Shown piece after piece: positions 19,073 through 63,345 of a DNA stretch of 64,000 nucleotides (the stretch's first letter is position 1; the number at the start of each line of letters is the position of its first letter). This DNA comes from Candidatus Woesearchaeota archaeon (GTDB lineage: Archaea; Nanobdellota; Nanobdellia; Woesearchaeales; GW2011-AR4). Position numbers and translations under genes: made by a program. Where the stretch lies: assembly GCA_018303185.1 (NCBI GenBank), contig JAGVYR010000066.1, positions 29,553 through 93,552 of the forward strand. The letters are read 5' to 3'. The notes under the pieces are model-generated. The model was not told where the DNA came from. It did no database searches and saw only the letters and a program-made list of their open reading frames with translations.

Positions 19073-20932
19073 CTAAACCTTTAATATTACTGCGCCATTG
19101 TTCTGCGTAACCGGGGAAAACAGCCCTGATTCCGCAATATCATTCAGCTTATTGTTTGTGTTTTCCGTCCCAAACTTCTTGGCAGTCTGCCCGTCAATGA
19201 TTAAGTACTGGAAGCCGTTTTCCTTCAGCCATGCGTGGTTCTCTTCGGCGCTCTGGTTAAAGCCGATAGCCCTGTACGAGCTTATTTCATCGCACCATGC
19301 ACAAGCCTCCATATCCATTCCAATCAGCGCCCCGAAATTGTCAAAAGTGAACACGTTGGACTGCTTTGGCAGGTTCTCACGCATCCACACATAGGCGCCT
19401 ACCTCCTCTCCAGATGTCCAGAATCCCCCCGGAGACCATTGGGCTGTGTTTACCTTGTACTTTGGGATGAAAGAGGTCTGGTATATTGCGAATGCGAGCA
19501 GTAAAATTATTCCGTATGAAAAAATTTTGGCAATATTTTCATTTTTAGTGAAGGCTTTAGCGGCGGATTTCACAAAGGCTCTTATGTAATCAAAAGCCTC
19601 TGCTGCGGCCAGCGCCGTCACAAAGGCAAGCAGCATCCATGCCCTGAATGGAGAGAGCTTTATCTTGAACCTGACAGCGTTGACTGCATAGAATGCAAAA
19701 AGAAACCATATTATCATGACTGCCTTGTTGTAATTTTCTTTGTTGAAAAACGACTTGTATCCCGATATCAAAAGAATAAGCCCGAATACTGCCAGAGGAA
19801 ACAAAAATATCCCGATGCCAACTGGATTGTTTATCATGTTGCTCCCGTTATAGCATCCGCTCTTGGGGGAGCAGAGAAAATCCTGCAGGGCATAAGGCCT
19901 ATCCCCTGTCCCTCCGAGGCTGAGGACATTCGCTCCACTCTGTATATGGACGCCGCGCATTGTCTCTGCAAGTCCATGTGTATATATCATGGGGGCCCAC
20001 CATAGCGCAAATGCCAAAAAGACAGCGAGAGCCCCCGCCATGAACTCATATTTCAAAAACCTGCGCTCTACAGCAGTCCTCGTGAAAAAATAAAGCAGGA
20101 AAAAAAGGCCAAAATAAGTGCTGTGCGTCGGAGAGGAAGTGATTGTAGTCAAAATCACAATAGCCGCAATGCTCCACCACTTATTGTCTTCCCTTATCCT
20201 TTCAGCAGCGTAGAAAGAGACAAAATACAGTGTCATTGTAAATCCAAGCGCCCATATGAAATGGCTCAGGTAGGCTGGCACTGCAAAAAGGGCGAATGCG
20301 GCGAAAGCTGCTTTTCTTGAGGACTTCATAAATTCTTTCGCGAAATAGAAAAAGAATATTATGCCAAGTGAGATTATCAGGGAATTAAAAAATTTGAGGT
20401 TCCAATAGACAGAATCATTTGTCTGGTGCAGGATGCCCATCGTCATCTCATAAGTCGGAGGATAAGGGTCGAGATAATGGAATTTTATCCCGCCTCCGGA
20501 AAACAGAGTTTTTTCCTGCGCAATAAAGCTTGTTCCGATGGAATGGCTCCACGGGTCGTCATCTTCAAGGTAAGGATAGGCAAAAGAGCCTGAAAGATAC
20601 ATGTAGAATGTGGCTGCAAGCAAAACTAAGGCAATTATTGTATAGAGATTCAGCCTTACCTGCAAGCCGCCCAAGACGGGCTTTTTATTTTTTAAATCAA
20701 TGTATATTGAAAATGCAATTAATGCTATGCTAAATAATAAAAAAATCCTCCAGTCTAAGGGGATATGCAGAAGGTTTAGGAGAAGGCCGAAAGCGGGCAT
20801 TGCCGCAAGCCCTATCCCAATCCTCATTATGTGCCTTTCAAGAAAATCCTCTGATTCCTTTGCAAGCCTTGCTATGCTTCCGAACCCATAGCAGTACACG
20901 AAAAACAATATTATGCTCAGCGCAGATGCCAC
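19073..20932 (-). CDS. Polytopic membrane protein with C-terminal soluble domain; possible GT-C glycosyltransferase or polymerase
   Basis: Many TM helices, an acidic loop (YLEDDDPW), and a C-terminal soluble domain of about 150 aa. No WWDYG motif was seen. Confidence 0.3.
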   Translation of the reverse strand: MASALSIILFFVYCYGFGSIARLAKESEDFLERHIMRIGIGLAAMPAFGLLLNLLHIPLDWRIFLLFSIALIAFSIYIDLKNKKPVLGGLQVRLNLYTIIALVLLAATFYMYLSGSFAYPYLEDDDPWSHSIGTSFIAQEKTLFSGGGIKFHYLDPYPPTYEMTMGILHQTNDSVYWNLKFFNSLIISLGIIFFFYFAKEFMKSSRKAAFAAFALFAVPAYLSHFIWALGFTMTLYFVSFYAAERIREDNKWWSIAAIVILTTITSSPTHSTYFGLFFLLYFFTRTAVERRFLKYEFMAGALAVFLAFALWWAPMIYTHGLAETMRGVHIQSGANVLSLGGTGDRPYALQDFLCSPKSGCYNGSNMINNPVGIGIFLFPLAVFGLILLISGYKSFFNKENYNKAVMIIWFLFAFYAVNAVRFKIKLSPFRAWMLLAFVTALAAAEAFDYIRAFVKSAAKAFTKNENIAKIFSYGIILLLAFAIYQTSFIPKYKVNTAQWSPGGFWTSGEEVGAYVWMRENLPKQSNVFTFDNFGALIGMDMEACAWCDEISSYRAIGFNQSAEENHAWLKENGFQYLIIDGQTAKKFGTENTNNKLNDIAESGLFSPVTQNNGAVILKV

Positions 20933-26282: not shown

Positions 26283-27371
26283 ATGAAAATTCTTGTCTTG
26301 ATGAAAAGGTTCGGGGCGAACAAGGACATGGCCCTCGGGAATTTCGGCAGGCAGGTAAGGCTCTTCGAGCCGCTCGCCAAAAGGCATAAGGTGGATTTTT
26401 TCTGCCCTGATTACACAAAGAGGGAGAAGAAAGTTTTTAAAAAAAATAGCATCACTTATTTCATCGAGCCCGTATCATTTTTTTTAATTCCAAAACTTTT
26501 GGCTTCGCTGGAAAAAATAATAAAAAATAAAAAATATGATGTGATTGTCGGCACCACCGATCCTTTATTGGGAATCCTTGCAAATAAGCTGTCTAAAAAA
26601 TACAAAACAAAGTTTGTCTACGACCTTCAGGACAACTTTGAGATATATTCATCCTGCAGGATTCCGTTTGTCCGCCATCTTGACCATAAGGCTGTAAGGG
26701 AAGCCGATCTTGTGATAACTGTAAGCGATACTTTAAGGGAGTGCCTGAGAAAATACAGGAAAAAACCCATGATAACAATTCAGAACGGCATTGAAAAAGG
26801 CATCTTCAGGCCAATGGACAGGAAGAAGTGCAGGGCAGCCCTGAAACTGCCGCAGCATGGAAAAATAATCGCATATATCGGGCACATATCCAATTACAAG
26901 GGATTTGATGTTTTGTTCAAGGCATTTCAGGAGGTAAGGAAAGAAATTCCTGATACGTTTCTTTTGCTGAGCGGAAAGGTCGATTACGGTCTTGATATAA
27001 AAAAAGAAAACGTAGTTTACAGCTCCCTTCCTGAAAGGAAACAGGTTGCAATGGCAATCAATGCCGCAGATGTATGCATAATCCCCAATACCGAGAATGA
27101 ATTTTCAAAATACTGCTTCCCTTACAAGCTGCTTGAGTACATGGCATGTGATGTTCCTATTGTAGCGAGCGATATAGGGGATGTCGGCATTGTCCTGAAA
27201 AAATACGGGAATTCCCTGTTCAGGGCAGGCGGCGCTTCCGATTTGGCGGAAAAGATAAAGCTCAGCATTTCAGCCGGCAGAAAAATAAGCTATAAGAGAG
27301 AAGTCGAAAAGTTCAGATGGAATGCCCTTTCATCAAAGATGGAAAAGGCGATGCTGGACAGGAAGCTATAG
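26283..27371 (+). CDS. Family 4 (GT-B) glycosyltransferase
   Basis: KYCFPYKLLEYMACDVPIVASDIGDVG. Confidence 0.75.
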   Translation: MKILVLMKRFGANKDMALGNFGRQVRLFEPLAKRHKVDFFCPDYTKREKKVFKKNSITYFIEPVSFFLIPKLLASLEKIIKNKKYDVIVGTTDPLLGILANKLSKKYKTKFVYDLQDNFEIYSSCRIPFVRHLDHKAVREADLVITVSDTLRECLRKYRKKPMITIQNGIEKGIFRPMDRKKCRAALKLPQHGKIIAYIGHISNYKGFDVLFKAFQEVRKEIPDTFLLLSGKVDYGLDIKKENVVYSSLPERKQVAMAINAADVCIIPNTENEFSKYCFPYKLLEYMACDVPIVASDIGDVGIVLKKYGNSLFRAGGASDLAEKIKLSISAGRKISYKREVEKFRWNALSSKMEKAMLDRKL

Positions 27372-28238
27372 TGCCTTCCTGCTCCTGATATTTTCAAGCA
27401 CGCTGTAAGGTATTTTTATTTTTCCGAGAGTGAACCTGAAATTGCCGTGATGGTCATTGCCGCCGCTTTCAAGGACGTGCTTTTTTGCCGCTATGCTTTT
27501 GTAGAACTTAATCATTTCCTCATTCCCTCTTTCATCAATCTTAAGCTCCGGGCAGATGATATGGTAGGGGTAATAAGTCTCTATGCCATCGCCCCCGTTA
27601 TCAAGGAAATAATCGATAAGCTTAAGCGATTCTTTTTGCGGATAAATCCCGGGATGGGCAAGTATTGCAACGCCCCCTGCGCCATGGATTGCCTTTATCC
27701 CATCTTCTATGGAAACCCTGTCATGAGTTTCCAGAAAAGCGGGCTTTCCCACGCCTATAAGCCTGTCAAAAACATCCGCTACTGAGCTGAATTTCTCAGG
27801 GTATTTTTTCAGCAGGTATTTTGCAATGTGCGGCCTTCCAAAAGTCCCTTTGACAGCCATTTTCACATCATTAAACTCTATCTTATAGCCCATGCCCTTG
27901 AGCTTTTCTATTATCTGCTTTTTATTCTCGTCCCTTTGCGAGTTGATATGCTTGATTAAATCAGCCAGTTTTTTATTGTTAATATCTGTCAAAAGCCCTA
28001 AAACATCAATCTTGTCAAAATCAAAAAGAGGGTCATCGCAGCTCAGCTCAACTCCCGGCACTATCTCAATGCCCCTATCCTTTGCATATTCAATAGCTTT
28101 CTGCACAGATCCTATGGAATCGTGGTCAGTAATGGCAATCGCCTTAAGGCCCTGCTTCAGGGCAAGGTCCACAAGCTCCTTTGCTTCCAGCTCGCCGTCA
28201 GAAGCTACAGTATGGCACTGGAGGTCTATATGCTCCAT
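27366..28238 (-). CDS. PHP-domain metal-dependent phosphoesterase (TrpH/YciV, COG0613-like)
   Basis: MEHIDLQCHTVASDGELEAKELVDLALKQGLKAIAITDHDS. Confidence 0.8.
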   Translation of the reverse strand: MEHIDLQCHTVASDGELEAKELVDLALKQGLKAIAITDHDSIGSVQKAIEYAKDRGIEIVPGVELSCDDPLFDFDKIDVLGLLTDINNKKLADLIKHINSQRDENKKQIIEKLKGMGYKIEFNDVKMAVKGTFGRPHIAKYLLKKYPEKFSSVADVFDRLIGVGKPAFLETHDRVSIEDGIKAIHGAGGVAILAHPGIYPQKESLKLIDYFLDNGGDGIETYYPYHIICPELKIDERGNEEMIKFYKSIAAKKHVLESGGNDHHGNFRFTLGKIKIPYSVLENIRSRKAL

Positions 28239-28239
28239 C

Positions 28240-28860
28240 TTAACCTTCCAAAATCCTTATGAGCTTATCCTTGAGCTCTTCAAACCTTTCCTCAGAAAGC
28301 ACAACTTTCCTCACAGGCTTCATCTTTACGAATTCTTCCCCTGAATCATCCCTAAAAGCCTGCTTCTTCCCGAATGAGCTGTCGACCGTGTAAGGCTGCC
28401 CTATGTTTCCCCTGAAAGGGAATATCTTGATGTGAAGATGCTCTTTCTTCTCCAGCCATGTGGTGCATTTTCCATAAATGGCAACTGAAGCGGCACCATC
28501 TTTTTTCTTTGAGGCTGCTTCAAGCTTTTTCTCAGACATCATTACCTCTGTAAGCGCCCTGCTGGCCTTTGAGAATATCCTGCCGTAATTCTCGGCAAGC
28601 TTGGGATATAAATCAATCTGCGAGAAATGAGTAAGGTGCGCGAAAGGCATTATCTGTATTGTGAAATCTTCCTCGGGATTGCTTCCTGTTTTCGGGGAAA
28701 GTGTTGCAAACCATCCGTCCTTTTTGCTTCCAACCCTGCATATTATGGCTGCGCCGTATTCGGTCTTGTCTCCGACTTTAAGGGCGATTTCCCTGCATAG
28801 GTTGCATTCTTTAGACATTTTTGCTGCCTCGCTGAACAGCTTTTCAGGTTCTTTTGCCAT
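28240..28860 (-). CDS. HIT-family (histidine triad) nucleotide hydrolase/transferase
   Basis: N-terminal CNLCREI (the HIT CxxC start) and histidine triad EHLHIKIFP. Confidence 0.65.
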   Translation of the reverse strand: MAKEPEKLFSEAAKMSKECNLCREIALKVGDKTEYGAAIICRVGSKKDGWFATLSPKTGSNPEEDFTIQIMPFAHLTHFSQIDLYPKLAENYGRIFSKASRALTEVMMSEKKLEAASKKKDGAASVAIYGKCTTWLEKKEHLHIKIFPFRGNIGQPYTVDSSFGKKQAFRDDSGEEFVKMKPVRKVVLSEERFEELKDKLIRILEG

Positions 28861-28861
28861 T

Positions 28862-29950
28862 TTAATTATCCAATACTCTTATGTATTCTCCGTCTCTCAT
28901 GCCCGATATGTAGCTGTCAAAATACCCAACGACTATCCTGTTGTGTTTCCTGCCTGACTTTTCAGACACTTCCTCAACTGTGCCGCTCACTTCAATATTC
29001 TCTCCGGGATATGCAAGCATGCAGTAATCCCTTGAATAAAAGGCTACTTTATCAATTTTAATATTTTCGCACGATTTGTCTCCGGAGACAAATTTTGAGC
29101 CTGAAACAGCATAGCAGCCCGGCCTTACAATGGAATCCGCATTCGCAGAAACTTTTGCCTTTACCTTGGCGTGCCCTATTTTTTTATAGTGCTCCTGCCC
29201 CCATTTGAACCATGTCTCGCCTTCATTTTCAACTGCAAATATGACGAATAAGGTATTTTTAAAAAATCCCTCTGACTTTTTCCTGTGCATGTTCTCAATG
29301 TAGGTTTCCTTTTTATGCACCATGTGCCTGTTCCTTTTGGTGTAGAAGTGCTCCCATTCTTCATAGGTTTTCCACCTTAAATCCTTGTCCTGCGCTTTCT
29401 CAAGATATTTCATAAGCTCCCAGAATTTTTTCTTTCCGTAGACGACAATGTTTATGTCTGATATGTTCTGGGAATAATGCCCCATTAAAGTTGAATAAGT
29501 TATGCCAAAATCCCCGAGCTTAAGCCCGCTTTTCATCAAAAGAGCGGCAAATTCTGATACTGTCTTAAGATGAAAGTCCATATCTTTGGGAGGAATGCTC
29601 ATCAGCTCCCTAAGCCCGTCTCTTGGCGAGTATTCTTTTTCTATATTTTCCTTGGGAATGGCGAAGAACAATGGGCTTATGTCGTGCATGTCGCTCTTGT
29701 AGATGTAGCCGGGATAAGCCCTGATAAATGCCTTGATATACTCGCTTAATTTCTCCCTGTTTATCCACAGGTCAAGCCGGTTCATCTTCTTTCCTGAAAG
29801 GAATCTTGAAGGCAGGGCATCGCTTGAAATCCTGTCCGTGGGAATGTATTTCGGCTTTACAAGAATCCTGCCCGGAGGATGCTCATTCCCGTAGACCTGG
29901 CAGTGCATGCCCTCTTTTGTTGTGATTATTGTAGATTCGTAGAAGTGCAT
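28862..29950 (-). CDS. Pol-beta-fold nucleotidyltransferase with N-terminal extension and C-terminal OB-like barrel (paralog 1)
   Basis: NTase motif TLMGHYSQNISDINIVVYG (G-x-SDhDh). The C-terminus reads NIEVSGTVEEVSEKSGRKHNRIVVGYFD. Confidence 0.45.
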   Translation of the reverse strand: MHFYESTIITTKEGMHCQVYGNEHPPGRILVKPKYIPTDRISSDALPSRFLSGKKMNRLDLWINREKLSEYIKAFIRAYPGYIYKSDMHDISPLFFAIPKENIEKEYSPRDGLRELMSIPPKDMDFHLKTVSEFAALLMKSGLKLGDFGITYSTLMGHYSQNISDINIVVYGKKKFWELMKYLEKAQDKDLRWKTYEEWEHFYTKRNRHMVHKKETYIENMHRKKSEGFFKNTLFVIFAVENEGETWFKWGQEHYKKIGHAKVKAKVSANADSIVRPGCYAVSGSKFVSGDKSCENIKIDKVAFYSRDYCMLAYPGENIEVSGTVEEVSEKSGRKHNRIVVGYFDSYISGMRDGEYIRVLDN

Positions 29951-29951
29951 T

Positions 29952-31022
29952 TTATATCAGAGCCTTCATGTACTCTTTTTTCCCCCTGTCTGAAGTGTAA
30001 GTGTCAAAATAGCCAAGGACAAGCTGATAGTATTCCTCTTTGCCTTTTACTTTCTCAAGAAGGCCGCACGCTTCAACTTTCTCCCCTTCTTTGGCCTGCA
30101 GCGCAAAAGGCCTTGCCCACGTAACAATTCTTTTTACCGGAACTTCCTTGTGCCCTTCCAGTATTTTTGTGTTTTCAAGCTCATAGAAGCCCGGCCTTAC
30201 TATAGAATAGCGTGCATCCTTTACAGTGCCACTTATTTTCACAGTGCCGAGCGGCTCATGCTCCTCTTCCCAATTGTACCATCCCTTGCCTTCTTCAATG
30301 CAGAAAAGCGAGAATACATTTCCGTCTATGAAGCCGTCATCCCTCTTTCTTGCCATGTTCTTTGCATATTCCTGCTCGCTGTAAACTTCTGACACTATCC
30401 TGTCCCTGAAGTACCTTGCCCAGTCCTGCTCTGATTTCCACTTCAGCGCGGGATGGGAGCGCGTTTCGAGGTGCTTCACTGCCTTCCAGCCGTTTTCTAT
30501 TCCGAAAATGAGTATGTCCATGTCCGATTTCCCCGGCGTGTAATTTCCAAGCAGCGTTGAGTGGCTTATTCCCAGATTTTCATTGCTTATGCCTGCATCA
30601 TTCAGTATGCCTGTCATTTCCCTTACAGCTTTAAGGTACGGGTCCAAATCTTCAACAGGGACTTTAAGCAGCTCCTGAAAGCCTTTTTTTGTATCATAGA
30701 ATTTCTCCACCTTGCCTTCAGGCACCCCTAAAAACCAGTTCCTGTGTTTTTTGCATTCGTATATGTAGTATGGGAATTTTTTCCTTATTGCTGCAAGATT
30801 TTTCTCGACAGATTCCTTTTTGTTGAAAAGATTAAAGCGGAACATGCACTTTCCGAAAAGAAACCTCTTTTTGAGGCCTACGAGGTCCAGAGTGCCGCAT
30901 GGTATGTACTTCGGCTTCGCTATAATGAACCCCTTAGGATGCGAAGAGCTGTACACCTTGAACTGTATGCCGTCAGCTGAGTCTATCAATGCCGCCTCAT
31001 AGTATTTTCCCACATCTTCCAC
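29952..31022 (-). CDS. Pol-beta-fold nucleotidyltransferase, paralog 2 of 28862..29950
   Basis: STLLGNYTPGKSDMDILIFG. It is colinear with paralog 1 throughout (VYSSSHPKGFIIAKPKYIP vs VYGNEHPPGRILVKPKYIP). Confidence 0.45.
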   Translation of the reverse strand: MEDVGKYYEAALIDSADGIQFKVYSSSHPKGFIIAKPKYIPCGTLDLVGLKKRFLFGKCMFRFNLFNKKESVEKNLAAIRKKFPYYIYECKKHRNWFLGVPEGKVEKFYDTKKGFQELLKVPVEDLDPYLKAVREMTGILNDAGISNENLGISHSTLLGNYTPGKSDMDILIFGIENGWKAVKHLETRSHPALKWKSEQDWARYFRDRIVSEVYSEQEYAKNMARKRDDGFIDGNVFSLFCIEEGKGWYNWEEEHEPLGTVKISGTVKDARYSIVRPGFYELENTKILEGHKEVPVKRIVTWARPFALQAKEGEKVEACGLLEKVKGKEEYYQLVLGYFDTYTSDRGKKEYMKALI

Positions 31023-31143
31023 CCAAAATGCCCTTATTAAGCAATAAAAAGGTTTTTAAAAACGTATAAAAACATTGTGTTTTATAGGGCTTAATCGAAG
31101 GAGAGTAACAACAGCCAGAAAGGGGGGGTTTTCACAATAAAAC

Positions 31144-31198
31144 CGCGAGGCGAGCGTTATGCATGAGAGCGAGCCTCGCGACAACCATTGCGGAGCGG
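31144..31198. repeat. GC-rich 55-nt hairpin repeat, copy A (copy B at 58476..58530)
   Basis: cgcgaggcgagcgttatgcatgagagcgagcctcgcgacaaccattgcggagcgg. About 90% identical to copy B, with an 8-bp stem cgcgaggc/gcctcgcg. Confidence 0.6.
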
Positions 31199-31296
31199 AT
31201 TGACAATAAAAATAACGAAAAACCAATAAGAAAAACAATAAAACAAATCAACACAAAAATATCCTAAAATAATAAATAAACAAAAGCAAAAATCTT

Positions 31297-31836
31297 ATGG
31301 AAAACAGACAAAGCTGGACTCTTTGGTTCATTGGGCTGCACGGCTCCGGAAAGACAACAATATCCTCAAGGATAGCTGATATCCTAAGGAAAAAAGGCAT
31401 GGAAATTGTGCTGCTTGACGGCGATGAAGTCAGGAAAAGCATATCCTCGGATTTGGGATACAGCTTAGAGGACAGGAATATCCACATGCAGCGTGTTGCT
31501 GACCTATGCAGCCGCCTCAATAATGAAGGAAAGATGGTGATTGCCGCAGTTGCCTCCCCAACAGAAAAGTCAAGGGACTATGCAAAAAAGGCGATAAAAA
31601 ACTTCTTCACAGTGTATGTAAAATGCCCGCTGGAAATCTGCGAGAAGAGGGATGTAAAGGGCCACTATAAGAAAGCCCGCCTTGGAGAGAAGGGATTCGA
31701 GCATTTTCTCGGCATAGGCATCAGGTTTGAGGAGCCGAAGAATCCTGACATAGTGCTTGAGACTTCAAAATATGCAGTGGAAGAATGCGTTGGTGTGCTT
31801 CTTGGGAAGATGAAGGAGAGAAATATTCTTCGGTAA
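31297..31836 (+). CDS. cysC: Adenylylsulfate (APS) kinase
   Basis: LWFIGLHGSGKTTISSRIADILRKKGMEIVLLDGDEVRKSISSDLGYSLEDRNIHMQRVADL...CEKRDVKGHYKKARLGE. Confidence 0.85.
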   Translation: MENRQSWTLWFIGLHGSGKTTISSRIADILRKKGMEIVLLDGDEVRKSISSDLGYSLEDRNIHMQRVADLCSRLNNEGKMVIAAVASPTEKSRDYAKKAIKNFFTVYVKCPLEICEKRDVKGHYKKARLGEKGFEHFLGIGIRFEEPKNPDIVLETSKYAVEECVGVLLGKMKERNILR

Positions 31837-32440
31837 ACCATTGGAAAACCAGTTGGCAATAAAATAACTATTCAGGGCATAGGGCTAAAGTTACATACCG
31901 TGGATAGTGAAGATTTCTTCCTGTTTACAGATGATGAGAGAGTTATGAAGAAGCCGCCTTATATGACGTATTACGGGGCTGAACACGATATAACAGTCTA
32001 CAATAATCCAAAAATATACGTTCAACAAAAAATAATAGAAATAAATGGGACCGTTATAAATTGTAAACGAGAAGATGATGGAAAATATTGCATAAATGCT
32101 GAATCAATTAAAATTTTAAACGAATTTGCAAATGCTTAGATACAATAGTTTTTTACAATTAATTGTCAAAAGCATTAATCACTATTTTTGGCTTAGATTT
32201 CCAGTATACAAACGCTTGATGGTGAGGTTTATTTTCAAAAGCTTTTGTTGTTTTATTTACATTAAAATAATCACATACGTGAATCGATAAACCAAGTCCT
32301 TTTGTAAATTGTCTCAAATCAATCAAAAATTTACATGATAAAGGAGTTTAATAAATTTAGGTCTTTAGCTTAAGAAACCACAATCTTTATATATAAGATA
32401 GTCTTACTAATAAGATATTCTTATCAAGGAGGCGAACAAA

Positions 32441-32698
32441 ATGGAAAAATTGGAAATAACAAGTATGAGTTCAAGAGGGCAGGTAGTTATTCCTTTAGAC
32501 ATTAGAGAACAGCTTGGATTAAAGGAAGGTGAGAAATTTGTTGTTGTTGGAGAAGATGATACAGTTATCTTGAAAAAAGTAACCATGCCTTCCTTCAAAA
32601 ACTTTGATAAATTAATTCAAAGAACACAGCAGTTTGCAAAAGAAAAAGGAATAACTCCAGTCGATGTTAAGAGTGCCATAAAGAGAGCTAGAAAATGA
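32441..32698 (+). CDS. AbrB/SpoVT-family antitoxin
   Basis: SSRGQVVIPLDIREQLGLKEGEKFVVV (swapped-hairpin barrel motif). Confidence 0.7.
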   Translation: MEKLEITSMSSRGQVVIPLDIREQLGLKEGEKFVVVGEDDTVILKKVTMPSFKNFDKLIQRTQQFAKEKGITPVDVKSAIKRARK

Positions 32699-33096
32699 AA
32701 GTAGTTCTTGACACAAATATATTTATTTCTGGAATCTTTTGGAAAGGTAGTTCCAACAAAGTTATAACTAATTGGAGAGAAGAAAAATTTACACTGGTTA
32801 CTTCTTTAGAAGCAATTTCAGAAATAATAAAAGTCCTCAAAGATTTTAAAATCAAGCTTTCAGATGAAATGATTAAAGAATGGGTTGATTTGATTGTAAG
32901 AAATTCTATGATTGTAGATCCAAAAGAAAAAATTGAGGCAGTTAAAGATGATCCAAAAGACAATATTTTCATTGAAACTGCTGTAGTTGGAAATGCGGAC
33001 TATATTATTTCGCAGGATAATCATTTGTTAAAATTAAAGGATTTCGGAGGAATTAAAATAATCACACCTGAAGAATTCGACAAAATATGTAACTGA
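32695..33096 (+). CDS. PIN-domain (VapC-like) toxin
   Basis: MKVVLDTNIFISGIF..., with a 4-nt ATGA overlap with the antitoxin gene. Confidence 0.7.
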   Translation: MKVVLDTNIFISGIFWKGSSNKVITNWREEKFTLVTSLEAISEIIKVLKDFKIKLSDEMIKEWVDLIVRNSMIVDPKEKIEAVKDDPKDNIFIETAVVGNADYIISQDNHLLKLKDFGGIKIITPEEFDKICN

Positions 33097-33369: not shown

Positions 33370-34209
33370 ATGGTGGAATCAGTAAAAGAATTGAGGAAAA
33401 TCTGCTATAAAGACTCCGGAAAGAAAAGGCCGCTCTACATGGAGCTGGTTACCATGAAATTCTCCATATACGTGACCAAGCTGTCCCTTTACACTCCTAT
33501 TGGCGCTGACCAGGTTTCCATGCTGATGATACTGCTTACGTTTATAGGGGCGGGCATGATTGCTTTCGGTAATCTCTGGTGGATGCTTGCCGGCATTTTA
33601 ATCGCGCATTTCACGATAGTGCTTGACAATGTAAACGGAGAGGTCGCAAGATACAGGAAGGAAGGCAGCCTCATAGGAACGTATCTTGAGGAAGTCTACC
33701 ACTCTGTCGCGGAGCCTCTTGTATTCTTCGCTTTCGGTTACGGAATATTCAGGAACACAGGATGGGAATCTGCAATACTGTTCGGATTCATCTGCTCCCT
33801 GTTCGTCCCGCCAATAATAATATCCTCAATAAAAAATGCTGTCGTAAAAAAGGGGATAGACCGATTAGAGAGCAGGGAAGGCATGCTGCCTAAAAAATAC
33901 ACTTTGCTCAATGAAAAGATAAACCTGAAGGGCGGAAGCACAAGAGCAGGATCAAAATTCTATGCCCTTTACGGCAAAATCAACGAGCTGTGGGGCTTTC
34001 CTTTCAATTTTGTGCACATAAACATAATCATAGCGCTGGAGATAATAAACCTCAGCTACAGCGTCATCCCTGAATTTTACCTTTCTTTTGGCTATATAGC
34101 AGCTTACGGAACTGCCAATTTCATCATACAAATCGCTTCCTTCATAGTGCATTACAAGGGAAGGACAATTTTCCACTACTACAACGCCCTGTTCGGCAAC
34201 AAGAAGTAA
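33370..34209 (+). CDS. Membrane protein with degenerate CDP-alcohol phosphatidyltransferase-like motif
   Basis: DNVNGEVARYRKEGSLIGTYLEE resembles D-x2-DG-x2-AR...G...D...D, but the last acidic residues are replaced. Confidence 0.35.
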   Translation: MVESVKELRKICYKDSGKKRPLYMELVTMKFSIYVTKLSLYTPIGADQVSMLMILLTFIGAGMIAFGNLWWMLAGILIAHFTIVLDNVNGEVARYRKEGSLIGTYLEEVYHSVAEPLVFFAFGYGIFRNTGWESAILFGFICSLFVPPIIISSIKNAVVKKGIDRLESREGMLPKKYTLLNEKINLKGGSTRAGSKFYALYGKINELWGFPFNFVHINIIIALEIINLSYSVIPEFYLSFGYIAAYGTANFIIQIASFIVHYKGRTIFHYYNALFGNKK

Positions 34210-62229: not shown

Positions 62230-63345
62230 GGCTTAAATGAGGCAATTGACAAATTCAATTTTTATATAGCAACAACGATTTTTGAACTTGAATTCTCTTC
62301 ATTTTTGATAACAATTTGAATTGTTCTAAAACAAATGAAAACGCAATTATATTCTCAACAGTTGTCTTTTTTATCGTATGACTTTTCTTTACTTTATTTT
62401 GTATTAAACAAATCTGCGTATAAATTTTTGAGTAACTGTTGACTCTTTCTATGCTTGTTCTTTTCTTAAATTCTTCCATTACAAATTCATTATTTTTATA
62501 GACGGGATTGATTTTAAAATGCCAATCTGTCATCGGTAAATCAATTCGTTCTGTAATTCCTGAAGCCCTTTGATTGTATCCAACCAAAGGAATTTTGTGC
62601 TGGACTAAAATTATTATTTCGTGCATTTCACGAAAATCGAAAATACCATCCATAGTTATAAAAATATTATTTTTGCTATCATCAACTTGTTTTTCTTTTA
62701 GCAACTCTTTCGCCAAATTTATCTGTCCTTCTCTTGCATAGCCAACTAAAAATCTTCTTGCTATTTGATGTTTTGTAGACGCTAAAATCATTAGCCAAAA
62801 TCCATGAAATTTCTTTTTGTCGCTTTTTGCTCCAAAGTGGTATCTGTCAAAACTCATGTCATCGTTTTCAAAAGCTCTGCTTTTTTCCAAAATTCCATCG
62901 AGAAAATTAAAAATTTCTACAAATTTATAGGAAAATTTCTTTTCGAATTTGCTTAAAGTATCATGACTCGGGATTTTTTGAAAGCCGCAAAATTCCAGAT
63001 AAGACTTATTTTCTTGCAATCTGTTCACCAAAATTGTGTTATCATCTATCAGAAGATACGATTTCAAAATAAATGACTTAAACAAATTTACATACCCAAA
63101 CTCTCTTTTCCTGCCACGACGAGAAAACCTTGATTTGCCTAATATTTGCTTGATGGGAAGCCAGTCAAACTCTTGGATTAGGCTTTTTAAATGTAGAAAT
63201 TCTCGGTAATTTTGCATAAAAAGTGCACCTCTTTTATCATATTACCGACTAGAAATTTGGTGCTTTAAATGCTTTGCGTGTATTCTGTCGTCTAGAAAGT
63301 TATTTTTTGTCATCTAAAAAAATTAAGCGATTGCCTCTTAAATAA
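62230..63345. mobile_element. IS4/IS5-superfamily insertion sequence (single transposase ORF, imperfect terminal inverted repeats)
   Basis: The IR core is GAGGCAATTG (62239-48) versus the reverse complement of 63328-37 (GAGGCAATCG). The element is AT-rich and encodes the 62255..63217 transposase. Confidence 0.5.
62255..63217 (-). CDS. IS5/IS4-like DDE transposase
   Basis: The N-terminal SRRGRKREFGYVNLFKSFILKSYLLIDDNTILVNRLQENKSYLEFCGF is an InsH-type N-domain. It is followed by a DDE region. Confidence 0.55.
   Translation of the reverse strand: MQNYREFLHLKSLIQEFDWLPIKQILGKSRFSRRGRKREFGYVNLFKSFILKSYLLIDDNTILVNRLQENKSYLEFCGFQKIPSHDTLSKFEKKFSYKFVEIFNFLDGILEKSRAFENDDMSFDRYHFGAKSDKKKFHGFWLMILASTKHQIARRFLVGYAREGQINLAKELLKEKQVDDSKNNIFITMDGIFDFREMHEIIILVQHKIPLVGYNQRASGITERIDLPMTDWHFKINPVYKNNEFVMEEFKKRTSIERVNSYSKIYTQICLIQNKVKKSHTIKKTTVENIIAFSFVLEQFKLLSKMKRIQVQKSLLLYKN

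What the first reader, a model, noticed from the sequence alone, without database searches (positions are those of the whole stretch)
31297..31836. Orphan APS kinase next to the glycan island and the PHP/HIT operon: possible PAPS-dependent glycan sulfation
A canonical CysC (APS kinase) sits divergently from the NTase-HIT-PHP operon, with no sulfate adenylyltransferase or PAPS reductase in the window. COG0613 PHP enzymes include 3',5'-bisphosphonucleotide (pAp) phosphatases, and some HIT enzymes act on adenylylsulfate. Together with the large glycan cluster, this suggests a PAPS supply and turnover module for sulfated surface glycans. This is a hypothesis only.
Basis: inference. Interest (0 to 1): 0.5.

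Follow-up and report, generated by a model that had tools for sequence, protein, structure and literature searches.

The report
Archaeal sulfate-activation module lacking ATP sulfurylase
A normal APS kinase gene in a tiny DPANN archaeon belongs to a widely conserved gene set for making and recycling the sulfate donor PAPS, in which the usual first enzyme (ATP sulfurylase) is missing and three uncharacterised proteins sit in its place.

Summary
ORF 31297-31836(+) is a bona fide APS kinase (TIGR00455 175.7 bits, cutoff 138.7). It lies 274 bp divergent from a tightly packed four-gene operon, inside a glycan-biosynthesis island, and the window has no ATP sulfurylase, CysDN or CysH.

The window comes from a DPANN (Woesearchaeota-type) archaeon. 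The operon is conserved in 62 DPANN loci. It encodes two paralogous Pol-beta-type nucleotidyltransferases (NT1 with DxD, NT2 with DxN), a protein recognisable as HIT only by fold, and a PHP phosphoesterase.
- APS kinase lies within 10 kb in 23 of the 62 loci, in at least five different arrangements.
- It is fused to the PHP protein in two loci and to a CysQ-like phosphatase in two loci that lack PHP.
- Sulfotransferases (11 loci) and sulfatases (9 loci) are neighbours.
- No Sat or CysD exists in 1.1 Mb of these loci, whereas half of the control bacterial cysC loci carry one.

No sulfotransferase is recognisable in this window.

My added inference is that NT1-NT2-HIT fill the sulfate-adenylylation step. 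This is untested.

The parts
31297..31836 (+). cysC: adenylyl-sulfate (APS) kinase, 179 aa
   Evidence: PF01583 E 1.4e-46; TIGR00455 175.7 bits > 138.7 cutoff. PDB APS kinases down to 8e-37. Clade alignment A3 keeps all catalytic motifs.
31023..31296 (.). 274-bp A/T-rich divergent intergenic region between NT1 and cysC (presumed divergent promoters). It contains an 8-bp GC-rich hairpin, 31144-31151 / 31173-31180.
   Evidence: Sequence and repeats. The fold is not better than shuffles, z -1.08. No Rfam family.
29952..31022 (-). NT1: Pol-beta-type nucleotidyltransferase core flanked by beta-barrel/OB-like domains; keeps GxSHSTLLGNY...SD[IM]D (DxD). Gene callers start it 3 codons later (353 aa).
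28862..29950 (-). NT2: paralogue of NT1 (33% identity) with an invariant degenerate metal motif SDIN (DxN). Probably the non-catalytic or altered partner of a heterodimer.
28240..28860 (-). HIT-fold protein, 206 aa, with CxxC (C19, C22) and H141-L-H143-I-K145 (third histidine of the triad replaced by Lys).
27366..28238 (-). PHP-family metal phosphoesterase (COG0613 type), predicted 3'-phosphoadenosine-5'-phosphate (pAp) phosphatase.
   Evidence: PF02811 52.9 bits. Best NCBIfam hit is 3',5'-nucleoside bisphosphate phosphatase NF041577 at 145 bits, but the cutoff is 400. PDB: RNase AM 7ug9 1.8e-24, Cv1693 2yb1 1.9e-22. Fused to APS kinase in L025 and L037; replaced by CysQ-like or HD-like proteins elsewhere.
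33370..34209 (+). c9: polytopic membrane protein, a degenerate relative of CDP-alcohol phosphotransferases. It directly follows cysC in related loci and is separated here by a MazE/PIN insertion. Membership in the module is uncertain.
   Evidence: NCBIfam archaetidylinositol-phosphate synthase E 1.4e-8, 34.8 bits (cutoff 180). Gene order 'PHP APSK c9' in L013, L015, L016, L017, L020 and L048.

Best explanation
The cysC gene is one component of a conserved DPANN-archaeal gene module that makes and recycles PAPS for sulfation of cell-surface glycans. The steps, and the basis of each, are:

1. Inferred, about 40-45% likely. The NT1/NT2 pair and the HIT-fold protein together provide APS from ATP and sulfate, taking the place of ATP sulfurylase. 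NT1 keeps a DxD site; NT2 carries a conserved DxN and is sometimes fused to HIT. Two chemistries are possible. NT1 may adenylylate sulfate directly, with release of PPi. Alternatively, a His143-AMP intermediate on the HIT protein may be resolved by sulfate, the reverse of the ADP-sulfurylase / APS-phosphorylase half-reaction known for HIT/GalT-branch enzymes.
2. Shown by homology. CysC phosphorylates the 3'-OH of APS to give PAPS.
3. Inferred from orthologous loci. A sulfotransferase sulfates a glycan made by the surrounding island and releases pAp. The enzyme is not identified in this window.
4. Homology plus context. The PHP protein hydrolyses pAp to AMP + Pi, the CysQ role.

In many relatives a PF01663 alkaline-phosphatase-superfamily protein also belongs to the unit. 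It is fused to NT1 in some DPANN loci and sits next to cysC-sat in bacteria. It may remove PPi. It is absent from this window.
For: Family and anatomy: see the APS kinase and fold results.

Conserved linkage:
- A genome scan with the NT2 family found 62 loci, 58 of them in DPANN-type genomes.
- In my set of 62 DPANN loci (58 from that scan, plus L009-L011 and the window), HIT is present in 52 and PHP in 41.
- APS kinase is within 10 kb in 23, a sulfotransferase in 11, a sulfatase in 9, and glycan genes in 50.
- APS kinase takes several arrangements: co-directional right after PHP (10 loci), divergent from NT1 (6 loci including the window), fused to PHP (L025, L037), fused to a CysQ-like IMPase (L024, L064), or beside a sulfotransferase (L042, L066, L154).

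Phosphatase slot:
- PHP (41 loci) and an HD-like 239-aa domain (10 loci) never co-occur.
- The two loci with IMPase-APSK fusions (L024, L064) lack PHP.
- The IMPase best matches CysQ TIGR01331.
- Cv1693-type PHP enzymes are known pAp phosphatases (PMC8268124).

Fusions chain the parts together: PF01663-NT1, PF01663-HD-NT1, HD-NT1, NT2-HIT and PHP-APSK.

The Sat slot:
- Sat/CysD HMMs and motifs find nothing in 1.1-1.2 Mb of these loci.
- Of 32 control cysC loci of at least 8 kb, 16 carry Sat or CysD, usually adjacent, and none carries NT1, NT2 or HIT.
- Bacteria show 'PF01663 > cysC > sat', where DPANN show 'PF01663 > NT1 > NT2 > HIT > PHP > cysC'.
- In Iainarchaeum (L010, L035) the six genes stay together beside replication genes, away from any glycan genes.
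Against: - No biochemical data exist for any of these proteins.
- Whole genomes could not be searched, so a canonical sat or cysDN elsewhere is not excluded.
- Only 23 of 62 loci show cysC within 10 kb.
- No sulfotransferase is recognisable in this window.
- The beta-barrel domains of NT1 and NT2 most resemble nucleic-acid-binding OB folds: SSB, RPA, MCM-N, Lys/Asp-tRNA synthetase N-domains.
- The nearest solved relative of the PHP protein is the exoribonuclease RNase AM.
- Distant relatives of the NT family occur, without HIT, PHP or cysC, in Thermoproteota, Korarchaeota, Bathyarchaeia and Methanococcus. The family is therefore not intrinsically a sulfate enzyme.
- The PHP score is far below NCBIfam's equivalog cutoff (145 vs 400). 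The first His of its HxH motif is Gln in this clade.
- A Pol-beta NTase or HIT enzyme that makes APS has no precedent.
- The loci are phylogenetically related, so the counts are not independent events.
Confidence: 0.6

Rival explanations
1. The PAPS module is real (CysC plus a pAp phosphatase serving glycan sulfation), but APS comes from a canonical ATP sulfurylase encoded elsewhere. NT1-NT2-HIT would then do a different job in the same pathway. Candidates are APS/PAPS proofreading or hydrolysis, adenine-nucleotide recycling, activation of the acceptor, or synthesis of another 3'-phospho-adenylyl donor.
Against: No Sat or CysD lies within 10 kb in any of 62 loci, although half of the control cysC loci have one adjacent. 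The bacterial 'PF01663-cysC-sat' order parallels 'PF01663-NT1-NT2-HIT-PHP-cysC'. From general knowledge, DPANN genomes are small and usually lack sulfate assimilation; this was not tested here.
Confidence: 0.27
2. cysC is merely a displaced gene of ordinary assimilatory sulfate reduction, and its position next to the NT-HIT-PHP operon and the glycan island is coincidental.
For: APS kinase is a standard assimilatory enzyme. This cysC is canonical in sequence.
Against: Linkage to the operon recurs in 23 of 62 loci across several DPANN lineages and in five different arrangements. Translational fusions to PHP and to a CysQ-like phosphatase occur. No CysH was found in any locus. Sulfotransferases and sulfatases are neighbours.
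Confidence: 0.05
3. NT1-NT2-HIT-PHP is a nucleic-acid or nucleotide-signal processing system: NTase with OB folds, an aprataxin- or Fhit-like HIT, and an RNase AM-like PHP exonuclease. The P-loop kinase would then be recruited to phosphorylate a nucleotide other than APS.
For: OB-fold similarity to ssDNA- and tRNA-binding domains; Pol-beta NTase similarity to TUTases, cGAS-like enzymes and CCA-adding enzyme. PHP is closest to RNase AM. The HD-like alternative resembles the SpoT hydrolase region.
Against: 50 of 62 loci lie in glycan clusters with sulfotransferases, sulfatases and CysQ-like proteins, and no RNA-repair genes recur. The kinase scores above the APS-kinase equivalog cutoff. No match to any anti-phage defence model. 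Identity of 55-75% across DPANN lineages fits core metabolism rather than a mobile defence or signalling island.
Confidence: 0.08

Closest known systems
Sat-CysC / CysDN-CysC / NodPQ / PAPS synthase (sulfate activation for sulfotransferases)
   Same: Same predicted product (PAPS) and the same logic: the activation genes are clustered with a pAp phosphatase and with glycan or sulfotransferase genes. CysC is an ordinary member of the APS kinase family.
   Different: No ATP-sulfurylase (PF01747) or CysD/CysN homologue occurs in the window or in any of the 62 related loci. Its usual position next to cysC is taken by two Pol-beta NTase paralogues and a HIT-fold protein.
Cv1693 / TrpH (YciV, RNase AM) COG0613 PHP phosphoesterases; CysQ
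   Same: PHP domain. Sequence similarity to Cv1693 (2yb1, 1.9e-22), a proven 3',5'-nucleotide bisphosphate phosphatase (PMC8268124). Occupies the same genomic slot as CysQ-like proteins and is fused to APS kinase in L025 and L037.
   Different: Scores 145 bits against an equivalog cutoff of 400. It is equally close to the exoribonuclease RNase AM. The first His of the HxH motif is Gln in this clade.
HIT-superfamily nucleotidyl phosphorylases/transferases: Ap4A phosphorylase Rv2613c, yeast Apa1/2 ADP-sulfurylase, GalT-like ADP-glucose phosphorylase, Fhit/Hint acting on APS
   Different: Not detectable by any sequence model. The triad reads H-L-H-I-K. About 200 aa, with extra C-terminal elements. 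Fused to or co-operonic with an NTase pair. The proposed direction (APS formation) is the reverse of the known physiological reactions.
Sulfate-assimilation pathway of Methanothermococcus thermolithotrophicus (PMC10322725)
   Same: An archaeal pathway with a canonical APS kinase (8a8h, 2e-31 to this CysC), in which other steps are carried out by atypical, non-orthologous enzymes, including the pAp phosphatase.
   Different: That pathway is reductive assimilation (PMC10322725). From my own recollection of that paper, not checked here, it starts with a canonical ATP sulfurylase. The present module has no reductase and no recognisable sulfurylase, and sits with glycan and sulfotransferase genes.

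Membership tests
APS kinase (PF01583 / TIGR00455) | Whole-protein HMM score above the curated cutoff | tested here: met
   TIGR00455 175.7 bits vs 138.7; PF01583 158.7 bits vs 21.1.
APS kinase (PF01583 / TIGR00455) | P-loop GxxGxGK[ST], LDGDxxR, ISP-type Ser-Pro and RDxKGxY motifs | tested here: met
   GLHGSGKTT, LLDGDEVR, VASP and RDVKGHY align with solved APS kinases and are invariant in the clade.
APS kinase (PF01583 / TIGR00455) | ATP-dependent 3'-phosphorylation of APS | not testable with these tools
   Needs an enzyme assay.
ATP sulfurylase (PF01747) or CysD/CysN | A homologue present in the window or next to cysC | tested here: not met
   No Pfam hit in the scanned ORFs. No RNPxHxxH, GRDHAG or CysD motif. 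HMMs from 19 Sat and 3 CysD give best E 1.6 in 1.1 Mb.
COG0613 PHP 3',5'-bisphosphonucleotide phosphatase (NF041577; Cv1693) | Equivalog HMM score above cutoff | tested here: not met
   145.4 bits vs cutoff 400. RNase RNM scores 137.9 vs 375.
COG0613 PHP 3',5'-bisphosphonucleotide phosphatase (NF041577; Cv1693) | PHP domain with conserved metal-binding His/Asp/Glu | tested here: inconclusive
   PF02811 52.9 bits. H9, D14, E64, H195, D262 and H264 are conserved in the family, but the first His of HxH is Gln here and in 18 of the 45 family sequences.
COG0613 PHP 3',5'-bisphosphonucleotide phosphatase (NF041577; Cv1693) | Functional link to PAPS metabolism | tested here: met
   PHP-APSK fusions in L025 and L037. 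The slot is filled by a CysQ-like or HD-like protein when PHP is absent.
HIT superfamily | Match to HIT sequence models | tested here: not met
   No Pfam or NCBIfam hit. The family profile finds no HIT protein in the PDB.
HIT superfamily | HIT fold | tested here: met
HIT superfamily | His-phi-His-phi-His-phi-phi triad | tested here: inconclusive
   H141-L-H143-I-K145-I-F. The first two His are invariant and the third position is an invariant Lys, comparable to Gln in the GalT/Apa branch. The CxxC is invariant.
Pol-beta-type nucleotidyltransferase | hG[GS] and [DE]x[DE] metal-binding motif | tested here: met
   Met for NT1 only: GxSHS...SD[IM]D is invariant. NT2 has an invariant SDIN, so NT2 does not meet it.
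Pol-beta-type nucleotidyltransferase | Fold and sequence-model match | tested here: inconclusive
Sulfotransferase (PF00685, PF03567, PF13469) | A member encoded in this window | tested here: not met
   No Pfam hit. HMMs built from the DPANN sulfotransferases of L009, L011, L022, L042 and others give no hit in the six-frame translation.

The most novel reading that the evidence does not exclude
NT1/NT2 (a heteromeric Pol-beta-type nucleotidyltransferase with one intact and one degenerate site) together with the HxHxK HIT-fold protein constitute a third, previously unrecognised kind of sulfate-adenylylating (APS-forming) enzyme. It would replace ATP sulfurylase and CysDN across DPANN archaea. 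PHP, CysQ-like or HD-like proteins would serve as interchangeable pAp phosphatases, and a PF01663 protein as a possible PPi-removing partner.
Probability: 0.4. Interest if true: 0.85.

Novelty: new variant of a known kind. Interest (0 to 1): 0.68.

Why it matters
Only two enzyme types are known to catalyse sulfate activation: homo-oligomeric ATP sulfurylase and CysDN. A third, unrelated solution built from a Pol-beta NTase pair and a HIT protein would be new enzymology for an energetically difficult reaction. It would also change how sulfur metabolism is annotated in metagenomes, where these genes are now 'hypothetical'.

The finding would also show that DPANN archaea invest in a dedicated PAPS pathway for surface glycans. 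These are ultra-small, mostly symbiotic cells with stripped-down metabolism. That points to sulfated glycans as part of their cell-cell interface with hosts.

It assigns a testable function to a family of several hundred conserved 'dark-matter' proteins. It also identifies three non-homologous candidates for the pAp phosphatase step.

Tried and rejected
- Sequence-level identification of the three unknown proteins failed: Pfam, NCBIfam, PDB phmmer and a family profile against the PDB all gave nothing. Only predicted structures were informative.
- The metagenome scan with the DPANN APS-kinase alignment was meant to sample the cysC side without bias. I reused these as a control set.
- The afdb50 fold library was unavailable.
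- Foldseek against the PDB gave no significant hit for NT1.
- The hairpin in the cysC/NT1 spacer is not better than shuffled sequence and matches no Rfam family.
- PADLOC gave no support for a defence-system reading.
- Eight literature searches found no description of this operon.
- A PP-loop protein (SGGKDS; L045, L049) was considered as a possible CysD and rejected. It has no Pfam hit and no match to the CysD HMM.
- Contexts of distant NT relatives (Terraquivivens, M. voltae) gave no functional clue.
- I could not scan whole DPANN genomes for sat.

Full report
**Observation**

ORF 31297-31836(+) encodes a 179-aa protein that is an APS kinase by every sequence test. Pfam PF01583 gives E 1.4e-46. 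NCBIfam TIGR00455 gives 175.7 bits against a cutoff of 138.7. It matches 24 solved APS kinases at E up to 1e-6, the best being 7yq0 at 8e-37, and also matches the Methanothermococcus thermolithotrophicus enzyme 8a8h. The P-loop, LDGD, SP and RDxKGxY motifs are intact.

Four minus-strand genes, each separated by a single nucleotide, end 274 bp upstream of cysC: 29952-31022, 28862-29950, 28240-28860 and 27366-28238.

I scanned essentially all ORFs of at least 130 aa with Pfam (precomputed Pfam for the central 20 kb).
- On both sides lies a glycan island: GT2/GT4 transferases, DegT aminotransferases, NeuB, a CMP-sugar transferase, two Wzx-type flippases, UDP-glucose dehydrogenase, epimerases and a Glyphos_transf protein.
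- Further out are housekeeping genes: SerRS, SMC, RNase HII and Orc1/Cdc6.
- There is no ATP sulfurylase, CysD/N, CysH, sulfate transporter or sulfotransferase. Motif scans and purpose-built HMMs on the six-frame translation agree.

**Source organism**

The 362-aa protein is 100% identical to a 'Candidatus Woesearchaeota archaeon' protein. All its relatives come from Woese-, Nano-, Pace-, Aenigm- and Iainarchaeota (Diapherotrites) bins. The window is therefore from a DPANN archaeon recovered from groundwater metagenomes.

**What the neighbouring genes are**

- **NT1 and NT2.** The 356-aa (NT1) and 362-aa (NT2) proteins are paralogues, 33% identical, E 6e-78. Neither hits any Pfam or NCBIfam model.
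  - AlphaFold models are confident: NT1 has pLDDT 92.5 and pTM 0.90; a natural NT2-HIT fusion has pLDDT 89.
  - Every NT1 orthologue keeps GxSHSTLLGNY...SD[IM]D. Every NT2 orthologue has SDIN at the same place. This suggests an active/degenerate heteromer.
- **The PHP protein.** The 290-aa protein is a COG0613-type PHP phosphoesterase. It is equally close to RNase AM (7ug9) and to Cv1693 (2yb1), a proven pAp phosphatase (PMC8268124).

**Comparative genomics**

A scan of one genome per GTDB species with the NT2 family returned 62 loci. Fifty-eight are in DPANN-type genomes, counting one bin labelled Patescibacteria (L062) that may be mis-binned. Four are distant pairs in Ca. Terraquivivens. I called ORFs and clustered them across 66 loci. 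Restricting to the 62 DPANN loci (58 from the scan, plus L009-L011 and the window) gave these counts:

| Feature within the locus | Loci (of 62) |
|---|---|
| HIT-fold protein | 52 |
| PHP | 41 |
| HD-like 239-aa domain (X239) | 10 |
| CysQ-like IMPase | 3 |
| PF01663 (alkaline-phosphatase superfamily) protein | 33 |
| APS kinase within 10 kb | 23 |
| Recognised sulfotransferase | 11 |
| PF00884 sulfatase | 9 |
| Glycan genes | 50 |

APS kinase occurs in several arrangements:
- Right after PHP in the same direction (10 loci).
- Divergent from NT1, as in this window (6 loci).
- Fused to PHP (L025, L037; 469 aa).
- Fused to a CysQ-like IMPase (L024, L064).
- Beside a sulfotransferase (L042, L066, L154).

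PHP and the HD-like domain never co-occur. The two loci with IMPase-APSK fusions (L024, L064) lack PHP. The IMPase best matches CysQ, and the HD-like domain weakly resembles the SpoT 3'-pyrophosphohydrolase region. Three unrelated phosphatases thus alternate in one slot. This is the classical signature of non-orthologous displacement for a single function, which here is most simply pAp hydrolysis.

Further fusions link PF01663-NT1, PF01663-HD-NT1, HD-NT1 and NT2-HIT. In Iainarchaeum (L010, L035) the six genes PF01663, APSK, NT1, NT2, HIT and PHP remain together next to replication genes, with no glycan genes nearby. They behave as a self-contained unit.

**The missing first step**

No Sat or CysD was found in 1.1-1.2 Mb of these loci, either by motif or by HMMs built from 19 Sat and 3 CysD sequences.

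The unintended control set came from the metagenome scan. It consists of generic cysC loci, apparently bacterial.
- Of the 32 that are at least 8 kb long, 16 carry Sat or CysD, usually directly adjacent. None carries NT1, NT2 or HIT.
- Several show 'PF01663 > cysC > sat > GHMP kinase > SIS'.
- DPANN loci instead show 'PF01663 > NT1 > NT2 > HIT > PHP > cysC'.

The place of Sat is thus taken by NT1+NT2+HIT.

It is chemically conceivable. Pol-beta NTases catalyse attack of an oxygen nucleophile on the alpha-phosphate of ATP. HIT/GalT-branch enzymes form His-AMP intermediates that exchange with phosphate or sulfate. Examples are ADP-sulfurylase (general knowledge), and Fhit acting on APS (PMC4613722). 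The inference is nevertheless unproven.

**Caveats**

- I could not search whole genomes, so a sat elsewhere is not excluded.
- The OB-like domains look most like nucleic-acid binders.
- PHP is as close to an exoribonuclease as to a pAp phosphatase, and it scores far below the equivalog cutoff. In this clade its HxH motif reads QxH.
- The wider NT family comprises 949 representatives at E<=1e-3 and 107 at E<=1e-30. It extends to Thermofilum, Vulcanisaeta, Korarchaeota, Bathyarchaeia and Methanococcus voltae, all annotated as hypothetical. Their contexts are unrelated to sulfur; the Vulcanisaeta homologue lies in a methanofuran/H4MPT cluster beside CitG.
- No sulfotransferase is recognisable in this window or in its closest relatives.
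- The loci are evolutionarily related. The variety of arrangements, rather than the raw counts, carries the argument.

**Comparison with known systems and verdict**

The module works like the Sat-CysC-CysQ sets that feed sulfotransferases. CysC is a plain family member. The pAp phosphatase is a plausible member of the Cv1693-type PHP group. The first step has no homologue of either known sulfate-activating enzyme.

I found no paper describing the operon. One review only notes uncharacterised PF03567 sulfotransferases in Woese- and Pacearchaeota (PMC11625862).

I rate this a new variant of a known kind of system.
- Confidence that this is a PAPS supply/turnover module: about 0.7-0.75.
- Confidence that NT1-NT2-HIT make APS: about 0.4.
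- Overall interest: 0.68.

Noticed in passing
window 32441-33096 (+): A MazE (PF04014) / PIN (PF13470) toxin-antitoxin pair sits between cysC and the membrane protein c9. In related loci c9 follows cysC directly, so this looks like a recent insertion into the module.
   Followed up: partly
window 33370-34209 (+); L013, L015-L020, L025, L037, L040, L044, L046-L048: c9 is a polytopic membrane protein with a degenerate CDP-alcohol phosphotransferase motif (D..NG..AR...G...E...H). It follows cysC in the window-type loci. The 15 loci with c9 and the 11 loci with a recognised sulfotransferase do not overlap (weak statistics). It could be the unknown PAPS/APS-using transferase or an unrelated phospho-headgroup transferase.
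   Followed up: partly
L077:2802-4316, L083:3924-5324, L142:753-2153, L129, L106 (control loci, apparently bacterial) and about 33 DPANN loci: A roughly 460-aa PF01663 (alkaline-phosphatase superfamily) protein recurs directly next to cysC-sat in the control loci, followed there by GHMP kinase and SIS heptose genes. In DPANN it is fused or adjacent to NT1. It is an uncharacterised, apparently general partner of PAPS synthesis, possibly a PPi-removing enzyme or a sulfuryl-transfer enzyme.
   Followed up: partly
L013:7536-8927, L016, L021, L028 (directly upstream of NT1): A pyruvate-kinase-like protein lacks the N-terminal part of the barrel (TIGR01064 186 bits, cutoff 306) and has a weak MarR-like N-terminus. 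It precedes NT1 in the closest relatives of the window but is absent from the window itself.
   Followed up: no
L009:5286-5531 and 19 other loci (cluster c7), just upstream of the PF01663 gene: A conserved roughly 80-aa protein with a ribbon-helix-helix-like N-terminus and an invariant C-terminal LGYL(D). It is probably the module's transcription regulator and is absent from the window.
   Followed up: no
L055:6222-7721 and L069 (between NT2 and PHP): A ProRS-like class II aminoacyl-tRNA-synthetase core (PF00587 + ProRS-C_1) sits where the HIT gene normally lies. It is another adenylate-forming enzyme in the same slot.
   Followed up: no
L156:7001-8089 (Vulcanisaeta sp. JCM 14467): A distant NT-family homologue lies inside a methanofuran/H4MPT gene cluster (FTR, Fmd, MCH, MfnB-like 4HFCP_synth, ATP-grasp ligases), immediately upstream of a CitG-family gene. 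This hints that the wider family acts on small-molecule cofactors rather than nucleic acids.
   Followed up: no
window 31144-31180 and 31131-31142 / 31200-31211: A GC-rich 8-bp inverted repeat (CGCGAGGC / GCCTCGCG, 21-nt loop) is flanked by direct repeats TTCACAATAAAA / TTGACAATAAAA in the otherwise A/T-rich cysC-NT1 spacer. It is not significant as RNA structure (z -1.08) and matches no Rfam family. It could be an operator.
   Followed up: partly
window 31900-32139 (+): A 79-aa ORF just downstream of cysC is called as a gene in near-identical contigs, but no family matched. A sub-threshold C/D-box sRNA match (sR23, 16.9 bits vs 45) lies inside it and is probably chance.
   Followed up: partly
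window 19073-20932 (-); 10 related loci (cluster c11): A 619-aa protein has no Pfam or NCBIfam match and recurs in the glycan islands that carry the module (for example directly after cysC in L012). Its function is unknown.
   Followed up: partly
L017, L020, L021, L048: A second PHP paralogue (about 291 aa) follows cysC ('PHP cysC PHP c9'). The two PHP proteins may therefore have distinct substrates.
   Followed up: no
window 62255-63217 (-): A DUF772 transposase-domain protein lies near the window end, beside SMC.
   Followed up: no
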